64,000 nt of DNA from Naegleria gruberi (GCA_000004985.1 GG738856.1); one strand, 5' to 3'. Shown: positions 53,458 to 64,000, counted from the first letter of the stretch. Made by a program: numbers and translations. Notes: generated from the sequence alone by a model not told the origin.

Positions 53458-56400
53458 ATGCAGACATTACCTAATACCCAATACAAAACATGTCAGAGAG
53501 CATGTTTAGTCATGTTTATAATGCTATTCATATTATCTGCATGTATTGTCGAATGCTTTCTAACAGTAAACATTACTTATTCGATTTCCACACTTGTTGG
53601 AAATGATGATAATAGCAAAACAATGGACGGATTGCCAGGTGTTGGCACTTTTGTAGATGGACCTACTGGATTATTCTGGCAAAATGGAATCTTGTTCTAT
53701 GCAGGTAAGTTTCTTGTTGCATGTTGTGTGAAAAATTAAATTGAAATCGAATAGAAAGAAAACACATTAGAAAGTTGGAGAATGGAACAGTAACTACACT
53801 GGCAAGTGGTTTGTCTACACCAAATGGATTATTTGCTCTTAATAACACTATTTACTTTGCCGAAACTTCAGCTAATAGAATTAAGAGAATCAACAGTGAT
53901 TTGACAATTGACATTGTGAGTGCAAACAATACTTCAGGAGGATATAATGGTGATGGCATGCTTTTTAACGCAACATTCTTTGATCAACCAGTCAGTTTAT
54001 GTATTGGTAGTGAAAATATAATTTACATTACTGATTCGAATAATTACAGAATTAGAAAGGTAGATACAGATGGAAAGGTTAAAACAATTGTTGGTGCAGG
54101 ACTGAATGGTTTTAATGGTGATGGTCTCGGTGTTGCCACATACATAACGTAAGTTTTCACATGCACTTTTCATTGTTAACTTTCGAATAGTTGGGCAACT
54201 TCTATTAAATACTGGACGAATGGCTTGAAATCACTATTATACTTTGTACAGTTGAATGAAGGAACCATCAGAACACTAGATCTGAGCACTAACTTGATTA
54301 CAACCATTGCTGGAATTAGGGCAGCTGGAACTTTTGATGGAGATGGAAAATCAGCTTTACAAACTTCATTCTTTCGAATGACTGATGTTACAATATCAAA
54401 AAAGAATGGAAATATTTATGTTACTGATAAGAGCAATCAAAGGATTCGTAAAATTAGCAGTTCTACCAATTTGGTTTCGACAATTGCAGGAAATGGATCC
54501 ATTGGATTTGTTGACTCAATGTCAAATGCCATCAATGCTTCATTGTTTAATCCAATGTATTTAGTTTTGACTGATAATGATGAAATAATCTTCTCAGAGT
54601 TTGGAAATAATAGAATTAGAAAATTAACTCCAACCTGTCCAGAAGGTTACATGTTAGATCTTTACAATGACACTTGTAAAATGTCTTGTTATGGAAAGGC
54701 GTATAATGATCCCAATGTTTGTAGTTCAAGAGGCATTTGTGGTTCTCCTGATAATTGTATTTGCTCTGGTGATTATTTTGGACTGGAATGTGGATCTCAA
54801 TGTGATGCTTTTTCACTGCCAACTGTCAGGTCTGGATCTAAATGTTTGCCATTTTGTTACTCATTGATGGGAAAGGTAGATTTGATATTATCAAGAGCTA
54901 AAGCTATGGTCAATTCAAATGTTACTCTACATGCGAGTATCAATGATAATTGCCTTTCAGAAGTCAAGCAATTTTTGAATATTTCTTACATGATTACAAA
55001 ACCAGATAATAGTACAGACACAATTAGTACCAACGATATGATGATCATCTTGAGTATGAATCAAATAGGCGTCTATACTGCTTCGGTTAAAATCGAATTG
55101 AATTCAACCATCATTTTCATTTCGAATAACTCAATTTCAGTAACTTGTAAAACAAAGGAAGATTATCTTTCAGGTGACTTGACCAAGATTCCAGTTGATG
55201 AACTAATTGATTTAGCTAACTCCCCAGATACTTATCAACAAATTGGAAACTTGACTGTTCAGTCAATTATGAAATCACTTGCTTCATCACTTTCTACTCA
55301 AATTAACCAGCAATTAGATTTACCTTCTCTTGCCAAGTTGACCAATGCGTTAGTTACTGTTTCTACAAAAAAAACATATATTTCAGAGGATGTTATTGTT
55401 GACTTGAATAATGCAATGTATAATGTTTCATTCTCAGTTGACAAGTTTAGTTCTAATTCGTCTAATTTCCAAGTTTTAGAGAGAATTGTGACCTCAATAG
55501 TTGAAGGTTTCACCAATTGTTATTCAACATCAAACCAAACATCACCTTCAACTGTCAACAATTTGCTCAATCGAGTTGTTTCTATGGTTTCCAAAACATC
55601 CAACAAGTCAGACGATGAATTTACAACAAAATCATCAGAATTTACAATTAATGTGAAAAGAAACATTTTAACTCAATTTTTCAATTCCACACACGTCAAC
55701 TTGTACTCACCAAAGAATCTAAGAGATTCCACTATTTCAGTTGCAACCATTTCATTCACAAATCCTCTCAAAATGGTCAACTCATCAAAGGATGCAGAAA
55801 ATATTTTAACATCAATTCCAATTACAGAGCAACTCTTCAATCAGTCGAATGTAAATATTAGTTTCAGTATTTCACCAATTGTTGAAATTCACTATCTCAA
55901 AAATGGTCAAGTAATCAAGCTGGTCAACCTTGCCGATCCAATTATCTTCCAATTTATCACTCAAAATATTTCAACACTTAACATGACTAACTACAAGGTG
56001 AAATGTATGTATCTACATGAGGAAACAAACAAATGGTTGTCAGATGGCTGTCAATCTTCATTTGATTCAATGTCATCAGTTGTGACCTGCTCTTGCAATC
56101 ACACGACTAAATTTTCAAGTTTCGTAATGAGAGAAACTAATCTCACCTTATACTCTGAACATCAATTAGAAACTGATATTTCCTTAGCAGTTTCTGGAAT
56201 AACAGTCTCGTCAATATTCATCTTATGGATTATATTGATTATTATTGGCTTAATCTTTACAAGAAATACGAATCCAAGAAAGTCAAGATGGATTATTCCT
56301 TATCTTTGCCTTACTTCACTCTTAATTGACCTCAGTTTCTCAGATATTGTTTCGAATGCCCTCTTCCTCTCCAAGGAAATCAAATCTTCCGATATTATCA

Positions 56401-57533
56401 GATCAGTTTCTGTTATAGTGACATCAGTTTTCTACATTCTGGCCATTTTCAATTATCTCATTCTCCATTTGAGATATATCCTATTCAGATACACATACGA
56501 AATTATGTTTTCTATTGCAGTCAAGAATGAACAGCAAAAGATTGGTAAATGGATCAAAATTGTAAATAGCAAAGTGGCAGTTTTTGTGGTCAACTTGATT
56601 GGAGCTGTTGTCATTGTGATTTACTTTGTAATTTTCACTGCTTTGGTTAATACTGGATATATTCAAAAAGAATACTCAAAGATAATGTCAGCATCTTTCT
56701 TTGTGGTGGTTTCTTTAATTTATTTAATACTTTTAATGCTTGCCATATTTGATTTCTATATGGAAAATAGACATGTCAGTAAGGAGGAGAAATCGACAAG
56801 TGACAAGAAGAAGATTAGCTTATTTTTGGATATCTACAAGTTTATATTTGTGAATGATGTGTTGGTATTCAGAAAGGAGTTGATTTTTTCATTCATTTCG
56901 TATTTATTCTTTGTTTTGAACTTTGCTTTGGGTTTCTCCTCATTGGATAATCCGACTGTGACTTCATTTGCTGAGGCATCCTATGCATTTGGTGTTGTAT
57001 ACGAGTTCTTTAACATTCTGGCGTTTGGAGGTTTCGTATTCCTTGTGAATTTTTGCTCAATTAATTGGAAACGTAGAAACTATTCTAATCAAGATGATGA
57101 GAATGAAAATAGAGAACTAGATATTGTACTTTCCAATCCACAACTTTTGAAAATATTTGAAGAATATTGCATGAGAGAATTTTCTTTGGAAAATATTTTG
57201 ATTTTCAAGAAACTTGAATCTTTACAAAAAAGTGAACTTTCACCAATTGACAACGAGTCACTTTTTGAAGAAATGAAAAAGGATTACTTTATTAATGGAG
57301 CAGAATTTGAAGTCAACCTTTCCTCCTCCATGAAAAAGCAATTTATTCAACTTTGTTCCGATCTGAAACATGTAGAAAGGACTCAAGTGGATGAAATATT
57401 GGAACGTTTGAGGGATGACATTTATATGAACTTGAGTGATACATTTTCTAGATTTATTTTCACCAACGAATATGCATCTATTAATGAGTGTATAGAATTG
57501 AAAGAAAAAACAGGCCAGTCCTTTACAAAATAA
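53458..57533 (+). CDS. Adhesion-GPCR-like receptor fused to an RGS domain: signal peptide, NHL repeats, EGF-like Cys module, Ser/Asn-rich stalk, GPS-like motif, 7TM and a C-terminal RGS domain. Three exons, approximately join(53458..53704,53755..54148,54191..57533).
   Basis: NHL repeats 'NNYRIRKVDTDGKVKTIVGAGLNGFNGDG' and 'SNQRIRKISSSTNLVSTIAGNGS'. EGF-like 'CPEGYMLDLYNDTCKMSCYGKAYNDPNVCSSRGICGSPDNCICSGDYFGLEC'. GPS-like 'CMYLHEETNKWLSDGCQSSFDSMSSVVTCSCNHTTKFSSFVM'. Seven hydrophobic helices between about 56.18 and 57.05 kb. RGS 'LLKIFEEYCMREFSLENILIFKKLESLQ...EVNL...'. The exons were joined across GTAAGT introns with 'cgaatag' acceptors, with frames checked. Confidence 0.75.
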
Positions 57534-57648: not shown

Positions 57649-57975
57649 TTACTTTCTTGACTTGGAAGAAAATTCATCATAAATTACATCAAGTTCAATT
57701 TCAGAAGAATCCTTAAAAACAATCTTTTGAACTCGACCTTGATGAATGAGCTTTTCAATGGGTTTCTCAATAATTTGTATTCCATTTTTAACATGCACTA
57801 AATGTTGTTGCTCTGGAGTGAGAGTACAAGGGCCATCAGTCAGCAATATTAAAGCCTTTGCCCAATTACTGATCATTACACATAAATCAAAGGTCTTTTC
57901 ACTATTCGAAATGGGGGCTGTTTTTTTTTCAACCCATTGAAATGCAAACCTTGAAATCCATTGAAATCCATTCAT
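57649..57975 (-). CDS. Hypothetical small protein of 108 aa.
   Basis: ORF with ordinary codon usage. No domain recognised. It may have an upstream exon. Confidence 0.3.
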   Translation of the reverse strand: MNGFQWISRFAFQWVEKKTAPISNSEKTFDLCVMISNWAKALILLTDGPCTLTPEQQHLVHVKNGIQIIEKPIEKLIHQGRVQKIVFKDSSEIELDVIYDEFSSKSRK

Positions 57976-58013
57976 ATTCTTAGAATTACTCGTTATCTCT
58001 CCTCATCATCTCT

Positions 58014-58783
58014 ATGTTTTTTACATTTATTTTATTTTTAAAAAAAATGTCTCTATTCCTTAATGAAAAACCATCAAAGAAGACTTTCCTCAATCCCGAG
58101 GTGTTTGAAGTGTTGGTACATTATTCGGAGAGTTGTGATGAGATTATTGGGATGTTTGAAGAGATTTTGAATGATTTGGATCCGAATTGCTTTATGAGAA
58201 AATTGAATTGGTATAAGAGTGTGGTGGAGAAGGAGACCATGTTGAATGGAGTAATTGATTATAGGATGGGATTTGACTGTTGCTATGGAAATGTTTGTGT
58301 TTTTCATTATAAGAGAAGAGAAAGATATTGTAGAGTATTTGAGGAACCATTTGGGAGGGAAGAAATTATGGAATGGTTCAAGTCGATTGAGGAAGGATCA
58401 GCTCAAAAACTTGAGATTAGTGAGGAACCATATGTAAATAATGAGCAAATGATTGTATACAAGAATTTTAAAGAAAAGATTTCTATTCCTGATAAGGATG
58501 TTTTTGTCATTCTTACTCAAGGTTAGTACAAAATATTAATACTAATTATATCATCGAATTTAGAACATAGTTTTTCGAAAAAGAAAGTCACCAAGCTCTT
58601 AGAAATGCTTAAAGATGACAATAATTTGATATGCTATCAAATGTGGAGACTTATTNGAAAAGAGTGTTGGTGCTAACCCAGAAAAGTTGAAAGGTTTGGT
58701 TTTTTCTCTGAGAGAATACAAATTGGACTGATTTCTCCTCTTTACTCTACCACAGGATTTCATATTCTAACAAACGATGAATA
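58014..58783 (+). CDS. Hypothetical protein, two exons. Exon 1 is 58014..about 58523 and the terminal exon ends '...FSERIQIGLISPLYSTTGFHILTNDE*' at 58783.
   Basis: A GTTAGT donor follows 'VILTQG'. The terminal-exon frame is confirmed by the duplicated copy, which the track reports as 63138..63386. A single 'n' lies at 58657. Confidence 0.4.
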
Positions 58784-59363
58784 AACAACTGATTTTTAAG
58801 CTTTTTGATGGGCATTTTACAATTAATCTTATAGGCAAATCATAAAATCACAGCATTTATCTCACTTTATTAAGCAAAAATTCCAAAATTTCAAAATTGT
58901 GAATTTTCTTCTAGTTGTAAAAAATTGAGTCGTCTTTGCTTATTTACGCTTGTAAACATCAACTCTCTTATTGTGTTTTCTATTCTTTCTATTCTTTCTG
59001 TGTTTTCTACCATGTTTTCTATTCTTTCTATGCTTCTTTCCATAAGTGTCGATTCTTCTCTTCTTATTGAATCTTCTCTTCTTTCCATAGACGTCAATCT
59101 TCTTTCTGATAATTCTCTTCTTACCATGTCTCTTCAAACCTCTTCTCTTTCTTCCGTAGGTATCCAAATATTTGTGAACTTTCTTATTGTTTCTTCTCTT
59201 CTTGTGGGAAACCTTCTTGAGTCTTCTTTGTTTGTTGTTCTTCTTGGCAATGTACAAGGACATGGTTTGTTCCTCTGCATTAACGTCAGAAGTCATGGAA
59301 AGAGCAAGAACTGCCAAAGTTAAGGCAATCAATAGAATTGAAATGAATCTTTTCATTTTGTTT
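58702..59363. repeat. Copy A of a duplicated block of at least 662 bp (about 99.8% identical to 63304..63965, offset 4602 bp).
   Basis: Direct comparison of the two stretches. The only difference I saw is a synonymous A/G at about 58772 against 63374 ('ctaacaaacg' against 'ctaacgaacg'). Both copies abut N positions. Confidence 0.8.
58940..59356 (-). CDS. Secreted, extremely basic Lys/Arg-rich repeat protein of 138 aa, copy 1.
   Basis: Signal peptide 'MKRFISILLIALTLAVLALSMTSDVNA'. The mature part is about 45% K+R with four repeats of 'D[TV]YG(K/R)KRR...'. This is an ATG-initiated subset of track ORF 58940..59389. Confidence 0.55.
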   Translation of the reverse strand: MKRFISILLIALTLAVLALSMTSDVNAEEQTMSLYIAKKNNKQRRLKKVSHKKRRNNKKVHKYLDTYGRKRRGLKRHGKKRIIRKKIDVYGKKRRFNKKRRIDTYGKKHRKNRKHGRKHRKNRKNRKHNKRVDVYKRK

Positions 59364-59781
59364 TTTTTTGTTGAGTGAGTTTGAAACAATGTTTAGTTTG
59401 AATTTATTGGTTTCGAATAGTGAATAGTAATTTAGTTCTTGTATTTATAAGGAGAGAAATCAGACGAGTTTGTTTACTTGTTTGGATTCTGTTGGATATT
59501 TAGATAGGTATTTATATGGATTTTGTTCAGAGTTTCGAATAAAAACAGAACATTCGCATAGAACTTCTCAACTCTGGACAATCCACCTTGTAATTTTCAA
59601 GATTGTTTCCAATGACCATTAAGAAGAATCCTCTTAATAACAATTTAAGAAAATAATAAGGCTGTTACCCACAAGTATTCTTTTTGTGGTTTTACAAAAG
59701 TTGTAAAGTTCAAGTTCCAGATTGAGGCTAAAAATATTCCAAAAAAAAAAAGTTCCAACTGCCAAACCGCACATAACAATC

Positions 59782-60726
59782 ATGTCCTCATCATCACTTA
59801 GATTACACTGCTTTAGAAACGGAGACTGGGAAAGAAGAGATGGTTTCATTCTCCTCATTGAAAAATCATTAAATAATTCATTGATGGAAAATTTGAAGAA
59901 TAGAGCAAGTAGGATATTGTTTCCCTTCTTGTTTGAGAATGTAAATAACGAGTCTGAATGTTTATCTGTTGAATACTTGCCGAAAATTAGAATATTTTCA
60001 AAATATGGATCCGAAATTAAGAAAGAGGAAGAATTGAGAGATGATGATGTCTTGTTCCTTTCATGTTTTAATGAGGATTTTATAAATTCTATTGCCAAGA
60101 TGAATTATCAAATCAAACAGCTAAGTGGATTGGAAAGCAATTTGAAGAGACAAACTACTCCTTGTTGTGGGGAAACTCAAACTGGAATGATTACTTCTTG
60201 TTTGGGATTCTCTGTTACAATTAATAGTTTATCAACAAAGAAGGAAGTTACATTGGATAATTTGAATGGTAGTTTGACCATTGATGAGATTAAGAGGATG
60301 TTATTAAATAGTGGCACCAACAAGGAACGATTATTGGGAAAGAGTGATTATCCACTCAAATTCACTGAAGATTTCATTCTAGTTCACAAAGGGAAGGAAC
60401 TTAAAGATAATGATGAAGTTGAGAAGCTCTTCTCTCAAAATCCTAATCCAACCAAACTAACTGTGTTCATGGTGTTGAAGAAACCTGTGTATTATGTAAA
60501 GATTGTCATGGAAGGAGGAAGAATGGTAATTATTGACAATGATTCCATTAATTTCACATCTCATGTTTCTGATTTAAAATATTATATGGAAAAACGTTTG
60601 AGAATGAATCTCAATGCCAGCAATAAGGAATTGATATTAATGTGGAATCAAGAAAAGATGATGGGCTCTGAATGTTTAGGAAATGCCTTCCCTTCAAAGT
60701 CAACTCTAAGCTTGACATTTATTTAA
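59782..60726 (+). CDS. Hypothetical protein of about 314 aa.
   Basis: Start 'MSSSSLRLHCF' with poly-A context. No recognisable domain. The C-terminal segments are beta-grasp-like ('KLTVFMVLKKP'). Confidence 0.4.
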   Translation: MSSSSLRLHCFRNGDWERRDGFILLIEKSLNNSLMENLKNRASRILFPFLFENVNNESECLSVEYLPKIRIFSKYGSEIKKEEELRDDDVLFLSCFNEDFINSIAKMNYQIKQLSGLESNLKRQTTPCCGETQTGMITSCLGFSVTINSLSTKKEVTLDNLNGSLTIDEIKRMLLNSGTNKERLLGKSDYPLKFTEDFILVHKGKELKDNDEVEKLFSQNPNPTKLTVFMVLKKPVYYVKIVMEGGRMVIIDNDSINFTSHVSDLKYYMEKRLRMNLNASNKELILMWNQEKMMGSECLGNAFPSKSTLSLTFI

Positions 60727-61632
60727 ACAACATTCTCATATTTACTTTCTAATAATGTGTATCGTACACTCCCTACAAATGCTGTATCAGAAAATCTTCT
60801 ACCTTCCTGTAACTCCTTTCCAGCAAAAATAAATCGAAATTTATCCCATGATTCTCCCAATTTACTTTCCAATAATTGTTTCATTTCCTTAATAAAATAA
60901 TAATAGCCATATTGATATGTGTAAACAGCTGTAGAGTTATCGTGGTTCCAAACTTGTGTGAAAGGAGATGCTTAAAAATAAGTCAAGTCCATCAACAAGA
61001 TCAATTTTGAAATTTCCTTCTCCAGTTCTCTTTTCAATATTCTGGGCTTGATTTGATTAATGTGTATTCTTATAGAATTCAACTTGGTAATTTTACTCAA
61101 ATCTAAATCCTTAATTCTCTTGCACTTTACAACTGAAATACTCTCCAAACATTTCAAATTTTCACAAATTTTCTATTCACTCTGTTTCAAAAAGTACCAT
61201 CCATCGAGATTTAACTTTCTCACATTAGAAAATCAACTTGACAAATCGACCTGATAATTACCAAAGTACAAGCATAATTTAGAGAGAATGATCGTTCTCT
61301 GATTTGATGTGTGACACCAACCTTCTAATAATATTTTTTAAAATAATTGGTTGGATTCAACATCTTGCATTGTAATTTCTTCTGATTTCAATTTTCCACA
61401 TTTTCTGACCCATTCATTTACCTTTTCAATATTCAAAAATCCATAAATAATGGAACAGCAGGTATGAAAGTTCCCCAGTCTAAATGATGGTTAATGATTC
61501 AGCCTATTCAGGTGACATTCCGTTTCCGCAAGCATCCACACATGGGACCAGAAAAACAAGTAATCAAATTATCTCCAAGATAACAAAGTAAAAATTTACG
61601 ATAATTTTCACTCTTGTTGATTCGGCCTTGGT

Positions 61633-62151
61633 TTAATTGTCATTTCTCAATTCATTTGATGCGTATTCCAGTGCCTCACCCTCTTGTTTGACAGCTTCCA
61701 GAACAATTTCATGATCATTTCTCAATTCATTCGATGCATATTGAAGTGTTGAACCATCTTGTTTGACAGCTTCCAAAACAACTTCCCTATCATTCTTCAA
61801 TTCATCAGATGCAAAGGTAAGCAAACAGCCGAGATTTCTAACTACTTCCTTGATGACTTGTTTGTCATTCTTGAATTCATCGGCTACACTCTCGAAATTG
61901 TGAGGGAATTTTTTGAAGTAATCCACTACGAAGGATCTATCGTGCATGAATTCGATTGGAAGAAATCTATCGTCCACTCTATCACGATTATTCATCCATT
62001 TGATCAAATCTTTTTGATAATTGTGGAACTTGTTTTGTAGATTTGAATAACATGTTCCAATTCCGAAATCTATTAACTCAATTATGACAGAACAAGTTTT
62101 GCAGTCATCATTGTGTTGTTGTTGGGACATTTTTTCGGATCTTAATTCCAA
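61633..62151 (-). CDS. DUF4116-repeat protein.
   Basis: Four tandem repeats of about 30 aa: 'ADEFKNDKQVIKEVVRNLGCLLTFASDELKNDREVVLEAVKQDGSTLQYASNELRNDHEIVLEAVKQEGEALEYASNELRNDN'. This is the DUF4116 consensus pattern 'vvlaAvkqnG.aLqyAs.elrnD'. Confidence 0.55.
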   Translation of the reverse strand: MELRSEKMSQQQHNDDCKTCSVIIELIDFGIGTCYSNLQNKFHNYQKDLIKWMNNRDRVDDRFLPIEFMHDRSFVVDYFKKFPHNFESVADEFKNDKQVIKEVVRNLGCLLTFASDELKNDREVVLEAVKQDGSTLQYASNELRNDHEIVLEAVKQEGEALEYASNELRNDN

Positions 62152-62455
62152 GTTTCGGCAGGATTACAAAACGAATGAGACCAATGGCCCAGTTCAATAA
62201 CAGGTTTGACAATTACATCCACCTTTTCTTGAATCCACCAGACAAGGGAATAATAAGTTAAATATTTAAAGTTGGTGCAATTCGAGATGCATTTCTCTAC
62301 ATCAAAAAATCCAACAGATCTGAAACACTACTCTCCAGCAACCATTTGATAATTCTCCAATCACTCAGGACTCATCTAAAGGAAGTTAATACCGATCAGG
62401 TTCCTTTAAATTTTCAAAGTTCAAACTAAACAATTCGAAACTTCACATAAAAAAA

Positions 62456-63007
62456 ATGCCTCATCACAATCCAAATAAATACATTAAATTCAACTCTCTA
62501 GCAGCCTGCATTCAGGACGACTATTATCCCATTGACGAAAGGGATGCCTATGAAGGATATGAGGACATTGATAGATTTCAGGTTTTTAAAAGAATAATTC
62601 CTTTCGCCTTGATTCTCTATTCAGAGGAGGAAAAGAAATTTATATTCCAGACAAATTTGAAAGATGTGTGTCCACAGAATACATCTCCAAAGTATTTACT
62701 TGTTCAACTTCAAGATTATTGCGATTTTAAACTTGCATTGATCAAGTTAGGTCAATTGGGGTTTTTTATGGATCGATCAAAGTTTATTATTTTGAAATAT
62801 GTTTCTGAGAGAAGTGAAATACGTAAGAAATTTTATTCTTACCGCTCTTCTTTGCTATCTATTCAGGAATATTCCAATTCTGGCATTGAGTTATATATTT
62901 CTGATTGTGAGAAAATTTCAAAAGTGAAAATTGACTTGTGTCAAGAAGATATTCTGAAAACAGAGATCAAATATAGCTATTGGAAAGGATCATCCTTAAT
63001 TCCTTAG
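62456..63007 (+). CDS. Hypothetical protein of 183 aa.
   Basis: A-rich start context (aaaaaaaATG). No recognisable domain. Confidence 0.35.
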   Translation: MPHHNPNKYIKFNSLAACIQDDYYPIDERDAYEGYEDIDRFQVFKRIIPFALILYSEEEKKFIFQTNLKDVCPQNTSPKYLLVQLQDYCDFKLALIKLGQLGFFMDRSKFIILKYVSERSEIRKKFYSYRSSLLSIQEYSNSGIELYISDCEKISKVKIDLCQEDILKTEIKYSYWKGSSLIP

Positions 63008-63254
63008 CCATTTCTCATTTGACCACTCTGTTTCATTTTCATCTCAAATTATTAGAAATGGCCAAAGAGAGAATATTTATTTAGATTTTGATATCTCTCT
63101 GTTTCATTACGAAAATGCTACTCAACATATTGAATTTATGTGTGAACACCATTTTGAAACCAAATATAGTTTACTAGTCAATCAGGAAAACAATGAAATA
63201 TTTATAATGAGCTTTCTTCATAATTTAGAATTTCACAAAATGGAATTTCACCAN

Positions 63255-63303
63255 NNNNNNNNNNNNNNNNNNNNNNNNNNNNNNNNNNNNNNNNNNNNNN
63301 NNN
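63255..63303. other. Assembly gap (N run). A second gap spans 63966-64000 and an isolated N sits at 58657.
   Basis: Literal n characters in the sequence. Confidence 0.99.
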
Positions 63304-63965
63304 TTTTCTCTGAGAGAATACAAATTGGACTGATTTCTCCTCTTTACTCTACCACAGGATTTCATATTCTAACGAACGATGAATAAACAACTGATTTTTA
63401 AGCTTTTTGATGGGCATTTTACAATTAATCTTATAGGCAAATCATAAAATCACAGCATTTATCTCACTTTATTAAGCAAAAATTCCAAAATTTCAAAATT
63501 GTGAATTTTCTTCTAGTTGTAAAAAATTGAGTCGTCTTTGCTTATTTACGCTTGTAAACATCAACTCTCTTATTGTGTTTTCTATTCTTTCTATTCTTTC
63601 TGTGTTTTCTACCATGTTTTCTATTCTTTCTATGCTTCTTTCCATAAGTGTCGATTCTTCTCTTCTTATTGAATCTTCTCTTCTTTCCATAGACGTCAAT
63701 CTTCTTTCTGATAATTCTCTTCTTACCATGTCTCTTCAAACCTCTTCTCTTTCTTCCGTAGGTATCCAAATATTTGTGAACTTTCTTATTGTTTCTTCTC
63801 TTCTTGTGGGAAACCTTCTTGAGTCTTCTTTGTTTGTTGTTCTTCTTGGCAATGTACAAGGACATGGTTTGTTCCTCTGCATTAACGTCAGAAGTCATGG
63901 AAAGAGCAAGAACTGCCAAAGTTAAGGCAATCAATAGAATTGAAATGAATCTTTTCATTTTGTTT
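63304..63965. repeat. Copy B of the duplicated block. It is bounded by N runs at 63255-63303 and 63966-64000.
   Basis: Same as copy A. Confidence 0.8.
63542..63958 (-). CDS. Secreted Lys/Arg-rich repeat protein, copy 2. The protein is identical to copy 1.
   Basis: The 138 aa product is identical to that of 58940..59356. It lies inside the duplicated block and is flanked by N runs. Confidence 0.5.
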   Translation of the reverse strand: MKRFISILLIALTLAVLALSMTSDVNAEEQTMSLYIAKKNNKQRRLKKVSHKKRRNNKKVHKYLDTYGRKRRGLKRHGKKRIIRKKIDVYGKKRRFNKKRRIDTYGKKHRKNRKHGRKHRKNRKNRKHNKRVDVYKRK

Positions 63966-64000
63966 NNNNNNNNNNNNNNNNNNNNNNNNNNNNNNNNNNN

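What the first reader, a model, noticed from the sequence alone, without database searches (positions are those of the whole stretch)
58702..63965. Near-identical 0.66 kb duplication carrying a secreted ultra-basic K/R-repeat protein, both copies flanked by assembly gaps
A block containing the 3' exon of gene 58014..58783 plus the whole 138 aa signal-peptide plus Lys/Arg-repeat gene is repeated 4602 bp downstream. I saw only a single synonymous A/G difference. Both copies terminate at N runs. This is either a very recent tandem duplication, uncollapsed haplotypes, or an assembly artefact. The encoded protein itself is odd. It has a cleavable signal peptide followed by about 110 residues that are roughly 45% Lys/Arg, arranged as four 'D[TV]YGKKRR...' repeats. 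Possibilities are a secreted polycationic (antimicrobial or nucleic-acid-condensing) protein, or a precursor of several cationic peptides.
Basis: seen in the sequence. Interest (0 to 1): 0.5.

Follow-up and report, generated by a model that had tools for sequence, protein, structure and literature searches.

The report
Orphan contig repeat; secreted polycationic gene
The 0.66 kb "duplication" in this Naegleria gruberi scaffold is most likely a redundant read-sized contig dropped between two assembly gaps, but the gene it carries is a real, unannotated member of a small Naegleria-only family of secreted, extremely basic repeat proteins of unknown function.

Summary
The repeat is real in the sequence: 58702-59363 and 63304-63965, 662 nt, one mismatch (58772 A / 63374 G). 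Only copy B is bounded by gaps, on both sides, with no unique flank. Copy A lies in continuous sequence, and an independent contig from a 99%-identical strain confirms its context across both block edges. Copy B is most likely a redundant orphan contig (misplaced read or uncollapsed allele), about 0.65. A real, partly assembled duplication is not excluded, about 0.3.

The upstream gene is a thioredoxin-domain gene with 703 nt missing from this assembly at 58643|58644. It stops at 58729-58731, so the A/G difference is non-coding.

The 138-aa gene (58940-59356, minus strand) is real:
- dN/dS is 0.23 against a paralogue.
- It has no differences from the related strain, while the flanks differ.

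It has a conserved cleavable signal peptide. The mature part is 111 aa, pI 11.9, net charge about +47, with four [ILV]D[TV]Y motifs between multibasic runs.

It belongs to a family of at least six loci seen only in Naegleria, with no Pfam, PDB or viral relatives. The window locus has no reference gene model. Function is untested. Polyanion binding is the best guess; a peptide-precursor role is a speculative alternative.

The parts
58702..59363 (.). Copy A of the 662-nt block, embedded in continuous sequence
   Evidence: Its context on both sides is reproduced colinearly at 99.2% identity by the independent contig L001 from a related strain.
63304..63965 (.). Copy B: a 662-nt island with an N run on both sides and no unique flanking sequence. 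Probably a redundant orphan contig.
   Evidence: It starts at the first base after the 50-N gap and ends at the base before the terminal N run. It stops 7 nt upstream of the ATG, inside a T run.
58772..58772 (.). The only difference between the copies (A here, G at 63374). Non-coding.
   Evidence: The related strain L001 has A, like copy A. The site lies 41 nt downstream of the true stop of the thioredoxin-domain gene.
58940..59356 (-). CDS of the 138-aa secreted polycationic repeat protein (copy A), stop codon included
   Evidence: dN/dS is 0.23 against the paralogue on L002. There are 0 differences from L001 over 417 nt. No gene model exists in the reference proteome.
59276..59356 (-). Predicted signal peptide, residues 1-27: MKRFISILLIALTLAVLALSMTSDVNA, with cleavage before EE
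   Evidence: The n/h/c regions and the small residue at -1 and Val at -3 are kept in all paralogues (VSA|, VNC|, VNG|, VRG|). It is a confident helix in AF2. SignalP was not available.
58943..59275 (-). Mature part: 111 aa, pI 11.9, net charge about +47, 53 K/R. A helix is predicted for about residues 30-62; the repeat region is low-confidence or disordered.
59156..59167 (-). Motif 1, LDTY (followed by G-RKRR)
59087..59098 (-). Motif 2, IDVY (followed by G-KKRR)
59042..59053 (-). Motif 3, IDTY (followed by G-KKHRK)
58952..58963 (-). Motif 4, VDVY (followed by KRK and the C-terminus)
   Evidence: The C-terminal VDxYK[RK]K end is kept in every family member.
63542..63958 (-). Identical CDS in copy B. 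Only 7 nt of leader are visible and no promoter.
58702..58731 (+). Last 9 codons plus the TGA of the convergent thioredoxin-domain gene (FSLREYKLD*). This is the only part of that gene inside the block.
58643..58644 (.). Junction where 703 nt present in the related strain are absent from this assembly. The missing piece encodes the WCGPC thioredoxin core. This is an unmarked gap, a misjoin, or a strain-specific deletion. A lone N follows at 58656.
   Evidence: No annotated N. gruberi protein matches the missing segment.
63254..63303 (.). 50-N gap to the left of copy B. Its size is nominal.
   Evidence: The related-strain contig L005 continues past the equivalent of 63241 for 611 nt of sequence that is neither copy B nor anywhere in the window.
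63966..64000 (.). N run to the right of copy B, running to the window end (true length unknown)

Best explanation
The window is Naegleria gruberi NEG-M, from the draft shotgun assembly. Its genome most likely has one copy of the block, copy A.

Copy B is most likely a redundant orphan contig about one Sanger read long. It would be either a misplaced read or an uncollapsed allele. The scaffolder dropped it between two gaps in a poorly assembled stretch. This step is inferred.

The gene in the block is real (shown). It is an unannotated paralogue of a Naegleria-restricted family of at least six loci. The family encodes small secreted proteins with three parts: a conserved cleavable signal peptide, a short Lys-rich helix, and a disordered polycationic tail. 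In the tail, four [ILVF]-D-x-Y motifs are separated by multibasic runs.

The most likely mode of action is inferred, not shown. The protein enters the secretory or endolysosomal route and acts as a polycation. It would bind polyanionic targets by charge: bacterial prey envelopes, nucleic acids, polyphosphate, or cyst-wall or matrix polysaccharide. In this it resembles histatin- or protamine-like cationic proteins.
For: Organism: the neighbouring ORF 59782-60726 is identical to XP_002679681.1 (NAEGRDRAFT_64939) on a 602,266-nt scaffold.

Copy B as an artefact:
- It is exactly gap to gap, 662 nt, with no unique base on either side, and it ends inside a T run.
- Copy A's context is reproduced through both block edges by a single de Bruijn contig from a 99.2%-identical strain. 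That is the only contig in that assembly carrying this protein.
- The region is demonstrably mis-assembled. 703 nt are missing at 58643|58644, and at least 611 nt are hidden in a '50-N' gap.
- The flank left of copy B's gap has no similarity to the flank left of copy A.

The gene is real:
- dN/dS is 0.23 at dS 0.62 against the L002 paralogue.
- There are 0 of 417 nt differences from the related strain, against about 8 events in about 865 nt of intergenic flank.
- Between paralogues, similarity is confined to the CDS.
- Codon bias is AAG:AAA 24:8, against 394:380 in the window's long ORFs.

The family:
- Members are NAEGRDRAFT_71365, 71069, 68008, 68479 and 50395, plus metagenome variants.
- The signal peptide, the -3/-1 cleavage residues and the motifs are conserved.

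Physical character: pI 11.9 and charge about +47. AF2 gives a confident signal helix, a moderate helix for residues 30-62, and pLDDT below 50 over the repeats.
Against: - No reads, depth or long-read assembly could be consulted, so the copy number in NEG-M is not measured.
- A read differing from copy A at 1 base in 662 would normally be merged with it. That it was kept apart suggests a mate-pair conflict, and a real second copy would also produce one.
- A real duplication longer than a read would also collapse and leave a gap-bounded remnant.
- The related strain being single-copy does not exclude a duplication that arose later in NEG-M. The copies differ by 0.15% and the strains by about 0.8%.
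- For function there is no transcript, proteomic or activity evidence. The many KR/RR/KK sites might mean the protein never survives intact in the secretory pathway.
Confidence: 0.6

Rival explanations
1. A real, very recent duplication in NEG-M, either a tandem unit of about 4.6 kb or a larger segmental copy. Most reads of the second copy would have collapsed onto copy A, leaving only a read-sized remnant between gaps.
For: - The gene belongs to a family that has duplicated repeatedly.
- 99.85% identity in the same orientation, 4.6 kb apart, is what a young tandem duplicate looks like.
- The assembler kept the copy B read(s) apart from copy A despite near-identity, which hints at a mate-pair constraint (inference).
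- The gaps on both sides could hide the junctions.
Against: - Not one base of unique flank is attached to copy B.
- The sequence before the left gap is an unrelated gene running into the gap. In the related strain it continues for at least 611 nt of unrelated sequence.
- The related strain assembles the block as single-copy through both edges.
- Visible copy B has no promoter and only 7 nt of leader.
Confidence: 0.3
2. The protein is a pro-protein rather than the working molecule. Kexin- or furin-like cleavage at the multibasic runs, with carboxypeptidase trimming, would release four short [ILV]D[TV]Y peptides. Three are followed by Gly plus basic residues, the classical amidation signal. This would resemble fungal Kex2-processed repeat proteins or animal neuropeptide precursors.
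For: - The protein has a signal peptide plus at least 4 copies of a short conserved core, each flanked by KR/RR/KK runs.
- YG[KR][KR] occurs 3 times; 1 of 100,000 shuffles reached that count.
- The Asp and Tyr of the cores are the most conserved non-basic residues across paralogues.
- The architecture meets the three screening criteria used for fungal KEPs: a signal peptide, at least 3 internal repeats, and KEX2 sites between them (PMC6339444).
Against: - The spacers are almost wholly basic and are themselves conserved (e.g. GKKRIIRKK), unlike the two-residue sites of KEPs.
- Gly after Tyr is lost at motif 3 in three paralogues (IDTYRKK) and is never present at the C-terminal motif.
- The most divergent members keep only two cores.
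- No modifying-enzyme gene is conserved next to family members.
- The presence of a kexin-type convertase or of PAM in N. gruberi was not established here (searches were uninformative).
Confidence: 0.15
3. The two blocks are long terminal repeats or another mobile-element structure bracketing a 3.9-kb insert.
For: Two near-identical direct repeats in the same orientation, a few kb apart.
Against: - The interval holds ordinary cellular ORFs (ubiquitin-like domain, DUF4116) and no gag, RT or integrase.
- The block consists of a conserved host gene plus the 3' end of another gene.
- The related strain shows copy A continuous with the same neighbours.
- There are no relatives in viral contigs.
Confidence: 0.02
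4. The K/R ORF is not a gene but a chance ORF in purine-rich, low-complexity DNA, or the shadow of the Ser/Leu-rich ORF on the opposite strand (58925-59323).
For: - The DNA is low-complexity (AAG/AGA-rich), and an ORF of 132 aa is open on the other strand.
- There is no Pfam hit and no annotated model at this locus.
Against: - dN/dS is 0.23 in the K/R frame with saturating synonymous change.
- The ATG, signal peptide, motifs and exact C-terminus are conserved in at least 8 sequences.
- Four paralogues are annotated genes.
Confidence: 0.03

Closest known systems
Redundant small contigs placed in scaffold gaps of Sanger-era whole-genome shotgun assemblies (misplaced reads or uncollapsed alleles)
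   Same: It is read-sized (662 nt) and near-identical to a nearby interior sequence. It is bounded by N runs on both sides. It sits in a stretch with other assembly defects.
   Different: This could not be verified with reads. That the N. gruberi reference was assembled from Sanger shotgun reads rests on my own recollection of the genome paper (Fritz-Laylin et al. 2010), which could not be opened.
N. gruberi 'predicted proteins' NAEGRDRAFT_71365, 71069, 68008, 68479 and 50395 (uncharacterised paralogues)
   Same: They are 59-67% identical over the full length. They share the signal peptide, the KY[IL]DTYG...IDVYGKKRR...IDTY...VDxYKRK layout and the C-terminus.
   Different: The window locus has no gene model. 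It has a longer His-containing RK(N/H) stretch before the last motif. 68479 and 50395 are evidently mis-modelled, with a wrong N-terminus and a fusion to a NOT2/3/5-like protein respectively.
Fungal Kex2-processed repeat proteins (KEPs: alpha-factor, Rep1, ustiloxin-type precursors; PMC6339444, PMC7329392)
   Same: A signal peptide, followed by at least 3 copies of a short core separated by KR/RR/KK sites.
   Different: This is a heterolobosean, not a fungus. There is no sequence homology. The spacers are long, conserved and almost entirely basic rather than being minimal dibasic sites. Processing is untested.
Animal or cnidarian multi-copy amidated neuropeptide precursors
   Same: Core-Gly-basic-basic sites are repeated within one secreted precursor.
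   Different: The Gly is not conserved across paralogues. There are no acidic spacers. PAM and convertases were not shown for Naegleria here.
Histatins, protamine-like proteins and other polycationic secreted antimicrobial or condensing proteins (from general knowledge)
   Same: It is small and secreted, K/R/H/Y/G-rich, disordered and very high in pI.
   Different: The resemblance is in composition only. There is no homology and no activity data.
Naegleriapores (saposin-like pore-formers released from multipeptide precursors in Naegleria; from general knowledge)
   Same: They are products of the Naegleria secretory or lysosomal pathway, made from multi-unit precursors and aimed at prey.
   Different: Naegleriapores are Cys-rich saposin folds. 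This protein has no Cys in its mature part, no fold and no Pfam match.

Membership tests
Genuine segmental or tandem duplication | Both copies are joined to distinct, sequenced flanks (junctions visible) | tested here: not met
   Copy B has N runs immediately on both sides and no unique base.
Genuine segmental or tandem duplication | Doubled read depth, or reads spanning both copies | not testable with these tools
   No reads or alternative NEG-M assembly were available. N. gruberi proteins are not in the positional index.
Genuine segmental or tandem duplication | Present in close relatives, or the assembly graph breaks at the block edges | tested here: not met
   The related-strain contig L001 crosses both edges unbroken and is the only contig carrying the protein. 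This does not exclude an event that arose only in NEG-M.
Naegleria K/R-repeat secreted protein family (NAEGRDRAFT_71365-like) | Full-length homology with a conserved signal peptide, [ILVF]DxY motifs and a VDxYK[RK]K C-terminus | tested here: met
   E values of 7e-41 to 1e-18 to four paralogues. Supported by the alignment, the profile search and the motif table.
Naegleria K/R-repeat secreted protein family (NAEGRDRAFT_71365-like) | Evolves as a protein-coding gene | tested here: met
   dN/dS is 0.23-0.45 between paralogues.
Kex2-processed repeat proteins (KEPs) | N-terminal signal peptide | tested here: met
   This was judged by inspection and conservation of the n/h/c regions and the -3/-1 residues. 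No SignalP run was possible.
Kex2-processed repeat proteins (KEPs) | At least 3 internal repeats with KR/RR/KK between them | tested here: met
   There are four cores and 20 runs of 2 or more K/R. Criteria are from PMC6339444.
Kex2-processed repeat proteins (KEPs) | Repeats occupy at least 15% of the protein | tested here: inconclusive
   The four bare cores add up to 16-19 of 138 residues (about 12-14%), depending on whether the following Gly is counted. The figure passes 15% only if flanking basic residues are counted.
Kex2-processed repeat proteins (KEPs) | Actual processing by a kexin-type protease and release of the peptides | not testable with these tools
   The literature look-ups were uninformative for Naegleria.
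Amidated peptide precursors | Core followed by Gly plus a di- or multibasic site, conserved among homologues | tested here: inconclusive
   The pattern is present at 3 of 4 cores here. Gly is replaced by Arg at motif 3 in three paralogues and is absent at the last motif in all of them.
Amidated peptide precursors | Peptidylglycine alpha-amidating monooxygenase in the organism | not tested
   Searches found no statement for Naegleria. The genome was not searchable here.
LTR retrotransposon | Internal gag/pol (RT, integrase) between the direct repeats | tested here: not met
   Pfam on the internal ORFs gives a ubiquitin-like domain, DUF4116 or nothing.
Known cationic antimicrobial peptide families (histatin, defensin, saposin-like, etc.) | Sequence or profile membership | tested here: not met
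   There was no Pfam hit at E<=0.01, no PDB relative at E<=1, and the repeat region has no confident fold.

The most novel reading that the evidence does not exclude
The family could be a heterolobosean counterpart of the multi-copy peptide precursor. Convertase cleavage at the multibasic runs would release several [ILV]D[TV]Y tetra- or pentapeptides, some C-terminally amidated through the Gly-basic signal. These would act as secreted signals or toxins. That would place neuropeptide-style or KEP-style peptide production in a deeply branching free-living amoeboflagellate. A less radical version: the intact +47 polycation is a new type of prey-killing or matrix-binding effector unique to the N. 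gruberi lineage.
Probability: 0.12. Interest if true: 0.7.

Novelty: new member of a known kind. Interest (0 to 1): 0.3.

Why it matters
For the assembly, anyone counting gene copies or calling recent duplications in the N. gruberi reference should not trust this 58.6-64 kb stretch. It holds a probable redundant contig, an unmarked 703-nt loss that destroys a thioredoxin-domain gene model, and a '50-N' gap that hides at least 0.6 kb.

For biology, the locus adds an unannotated member to a small secreted family confined to Naegleria and carrying extreme positive charge. Such proteins are candidates for how a bacterivorous amoeba handles prey, surfaces or its cyst wall. Their core-plus-multibasic layout makes a peptide-precursor role cheaply testable by peptidomics. 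None of this is established, and the family is already present in databases as 'predicted protein'.

Tried and rejected
Context beyond the window:
- I tried to fetch NEG-M sequence past the window end and around the paralogues. The N. gruberi proteins are not in the positional index, and the exact 183-aa ORF was not found.
- I worked around this through a 95%-identical metagenome protein. It gave L005, which crosses the left gap but does not reach any copy B.

Wider homologue searches:
- An exhaustive profile search of 1.84 billion representatives found only family members already known, plus NAEGRDRAFT_50395.
- JGI metagenomes gave none, IMG/VR none, PDB none and Pfam none.
- Nothing turned up from N. 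fowleri, N. lovaniensis or other heteroloboseans. Short unannotated ORFs there would have been missed.

Expression and literature:
- No paper mentions the locus tags or UniProt ids.
- The supplements of a copper-proteomics paper have no hit.
- A differentiation RNA-seq preprint has no supplements held.
- The genome paper is not held, and the metagenome project id appears in no paper.

Other leads dropped:
- I first read the about 620-nt contigs L003 and L004 as assembled transcripts, because one starts with an adapter tail and both share a 3' end. I withdrew this: both include a TATAAAT box about 50 nt upstream of the ATG, so they may be genomic.
- The AF2 model was too poor over the repeats to justify a fold search.
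- The LTR and non-coding readings were rejected (see rivals).
- Rfam and tandem-repeat scans of 56-64 kb found nothing relevant.
- A search for an annotated NEG-M protein covering the missing thioredoxin segment found none.

Full report
**What is in the sequence**

The window is AT-rich (34% GC) eukaryotic DNA. The ORF at 59782-60726 is identical to Naegleria gruberi XP_002679681.1 (NAEGRDRAFT_64939), which lies on a 602,266-nt scaffold. The window is therefore part of the NEG-M reference assembly.

The repeat exists. Positions 58702-59363 and 63304-63965 are 662 nt each, in the same orientation and 4602 nt apart. They have one mismatch, 58772 A against 63374 G. The window has three N features: a single N at 58656, 50 N at 63254-63303, and N from 63966 to the window end.

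Copy B begins at the first base after one gap and ends at the last base before the next. It stops inside a T run 7 nt upstream of the ATG of the gene it carries. Copy A is embedded in ordinary sequence on both sides. So 'both copies flanked by gaps' holds for copy B only.

**Independent view of the locus**

The exact 138-aa protein is encoded on one contig of an ENA metagenome assembly (L001, 3680 nt). L001 is colinear with window 60956..58644 at 99.2% identity and with 58644..57969 at 96.6%. It therefore crosses both edges of copy A without a break.

Between those two alignments L001 carries 703 nt that the window lacks, at 58643|58644, 12 nt left of the lone N. They are in frame and encode the WCGPC core of a thioredoxin domain (Pfam PF00085).

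The upstream gene is thus a two-exon thioredoxin-domain gene. In its true frame it ends ...FSLREYKLD* at TGA 58729-58731. The A/G difference at 58772 lies in the 208-nt spacer between two convergent genes, so it is not a synonymous site. L001 has A there, like copy A. No annotated N. gruberi protein matches the missing segment. The 703 nt are either an unmarked assembly loss or a strain-specific frameshifting deletion.

A second contig from the same metagenome (L005) was reached through a 95%-identical protein. It is colinear with 61637-63241 and then continues for 611 nt. That sequence is neither copy B nor anywhere in the window. The '50-N' gap is therefore nominal, and the ORF that runs into it (63138-63253) has its continuation hidden there.

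**Is the duplication real?**

Several observations favour a redundant orphan contig:
- Copy B has no unique base on either side.
- It is the length of one good Sanger read.
- The stretch has at least two other assembly defects.
- The sequence left of its gap is unrelated to the sequence left of copy A.
- A 99%-identical strain assembles the block as single-copy through both edges.

Other points argue the opposite way:
- A read differing at 1 base in 662 would normally be merged with copy A. That it was kept apart hints at a mate-pair conflict, which a true second copy would also cause.
- A duplication longer than a read would itself collapse and leave a gap-bounded remnant.
- The copies differ by 0.15% and the strains by about 0.8%. 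A duplication arising only in NEG-M would not show in the relative.

I put the artefact or uncollapsed-allele reading at about 0.65 and a real recent duplication at about 0.3. Reads are needed to settle it.

An LTR-type reading is rejected. The 3.9-kb interval holds a ubiquitin-like-domain ORF, a DUF4116 repeat ORF and an unassigned ORF, with no gag or pol. The 'repeat' itself is a conserved host gene.

**The gene**

The CDS is 58940-59356 on the minus strand (138 aa) and is identical in copy B at 63542-63958. Several results show it is a real protein-coding gene:
- Against the paralogue on L002, dN/dS is 0.23 at dS 0.62. Against more distant members it is 0.41-0.45.
- There is no difference from the related strain over 417 nt, while the intergenic flanks carry about 8 events in about 865 nt.
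- Similarity between paralogous loci stops at the CDS ends, apart from an A-rich leader.
- Lys codons are AAG:AAA 24:8, against 394:380 in the window's long ORFs. GC3 is 0.42 against 0.29.

The Ser/Leu-rich ORF on the other strand is a shadow.

**The family**

A word-indexed search found four N. gruberi 'predicted proteins', NAEGRDRAFT_71365, 71069, 68008 and 68479, on four other scaffolds at 59-69% identity. It also found metagenome variants.

An exhaustive profile search of 1.84 billion cluster representatives added only NAEGRDRAFT_50395. In that model a family member is fused to a NOT2/3/5-like C-terminal protein, most likely a merged gene model. NAEGRDRAFT_68479 has an evidently wrong N-terminus. 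The two metagenome variants were called through a TAG stop; their true C-termini are ...VD[FL]YKKK.

No relatives were found in Pfam, PDB, JGI metagenome contigs or IMG/VR. The window locus itself has no gene model in the reference proteome, and there is no third copy in the window.

**Anatomy of the protein**

Residues 1-27 are MKR + FISILLIALTLAVLAL + SMTSDVNA. These form a positive n-region, a hydrophobic core and a c-region with Val at -3 and Ala at -1, followed by EE. All paralogues keep Val at -3 and a small residue at -1 (VSA, VNC, VNG, VRG). I take this as a cleaved signal peptide. SignalP was not available.

The mature part is 111 aa, 14.1 kDa, pI 11.9 and net charge about +47, with 53 K/R, 7 H and 6 D/E. 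All four Asp residues of the mature part sit in [ILV]D[TV]Y motifs (LDTY, IDVY, IDTY, VDVY). None of 100,000 composition-preserving shuffles gave three or more. YG[KR][KR] occurs three times, and 1 of 100,000 shuffles reached that count.

AF2 on the six-sequence alignment gives a confident signal helix and a moderately confident helix for about residues 30-62. pLDDT is below 50 over the repeats (mean 60.5, pTM 0.23). The basic tail is probably disordered.

**How it most likely works**

Shown: the gene is conserved, it is under purifying selection, and it has a secretory-type N-terminus and an extreme polycationic, motif-punctuated tail.

Inferred: the protein enters the ER and is delivered outside the cell or to the endolysosomal or phagosomal system. 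There it binds polyanions by charge: bacterial envelopes, nucleic acids, polyphosphate, or wall or matrix polysaccharide. Its composition resembles histatin- or protamine-like proteins, and this fits a bacterivorous amoeba. I give this about 0.4 as the function.

The main rival (about 0.15) is that the protein is a precursor. It has 20 runs of two or more K/R, one perfect R-x-K/R-R site, and cores followed by Gly plus basic residues. This formally meets the three criteria used to screen fungal Kex2-processed repeat proteins (PMC6339444), and it resembles amidated-peptide precursors. Several points count against it:
- The conserved, almost entirely basic spacers.
- Loss of the Gly at motif 3 in three paralogues.
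- Only two cores in the most divergent members.
- No conserved neighbouring enzyme genes.
- No evidence obtained here that Naegleria has the needed convertase or amidating enzyme.

**Verdict**

The duplication is probably not biological. The encoded protein is a genuine but functionally unknown member of a Naegleria-restricted family that already sits in databases as 'predicted protein'. Interest is modest: useful as an assembly and annotation correction, and as a cheap lead for peptidomics or secretome work.

Noticed in passing
window 58643-58656: 703 nt present in a 99%-identical strain (L001 2312-3014) are absent here, 12 nt left of a lone N. They encode the WCGPC thioredoxin core of the gene starting near 58014. 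This is an unmarked assembly loss or misjoin, or a strain-specific frameshifting deletion. No annotated N. gruberi protein covers the missing part.
   Followed up: partly
window 63138-63303; L005 1900-2511: An ORF runs into the 50-N gap. In the related strain the sequence continues for at least 611 nt that are not in the window, so the stated gap size is nominal.
   Followed up: partly
window 58940-59356 (-): The K/R-repeat gene has no gene model in the N. gruberi reference proteome, although five paralogues are annotated.
   Followed up: yes
P0010 (NAEGRDRAFT_50395) and P0006 (NAEGRDRAFT_68479): Two paralogue gene models look wrong. 50395 fuses a family member (residues about 1-135, with five or six cores) to a Q/N-rich, NOT2/3/5-like C-terminal protein. 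68479 replaces the signal peptide with an unrelated N-terminus.
   Followed up: no
L003 110-529 and L004 127-549: Two metagenome variants of a divergent family member differ by about 14 non-synonymous and 1 synonymous change (dN/dS about 3.3 on small numbers). The changes cluster in one basic segment, which could reflect rapid diversification, gene conversion or an indel pair. Their gene calls read through a TAG stop. L004 starts with an Illumina adapter tail.
   Followed up: partly
window 54225-57533 (+), possibly continuing from 53775: A 1102-aa ORF combines NHL repeats, a GPS (GPCR proteolysis site) motif, a multi-pass hydrophobic region and a C-terminal RGS domain. This is a receptor-RGS fusion with an adhesion-GPCR-like GPS motif in a heterolobosean.
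   Followed up: no
window 61633-62151 (-): An ORF with three DUF4116 repeats (Pfam E=2e-56) is encoded by a 75-nt-period tandem array at 61640-61813. The related strain has extra repeat copies here (L005 self-similar hits).
   Followed up: no
window 59357-59480; L003 and L004 upstream regions: Family members share an A-rich leader (..AACAAAA(A)ATG) and a TATAAAT box 50-85 nt upstream of the ATG. Otherwise the flanks are unrelated between paralogues.
   Followed up: no
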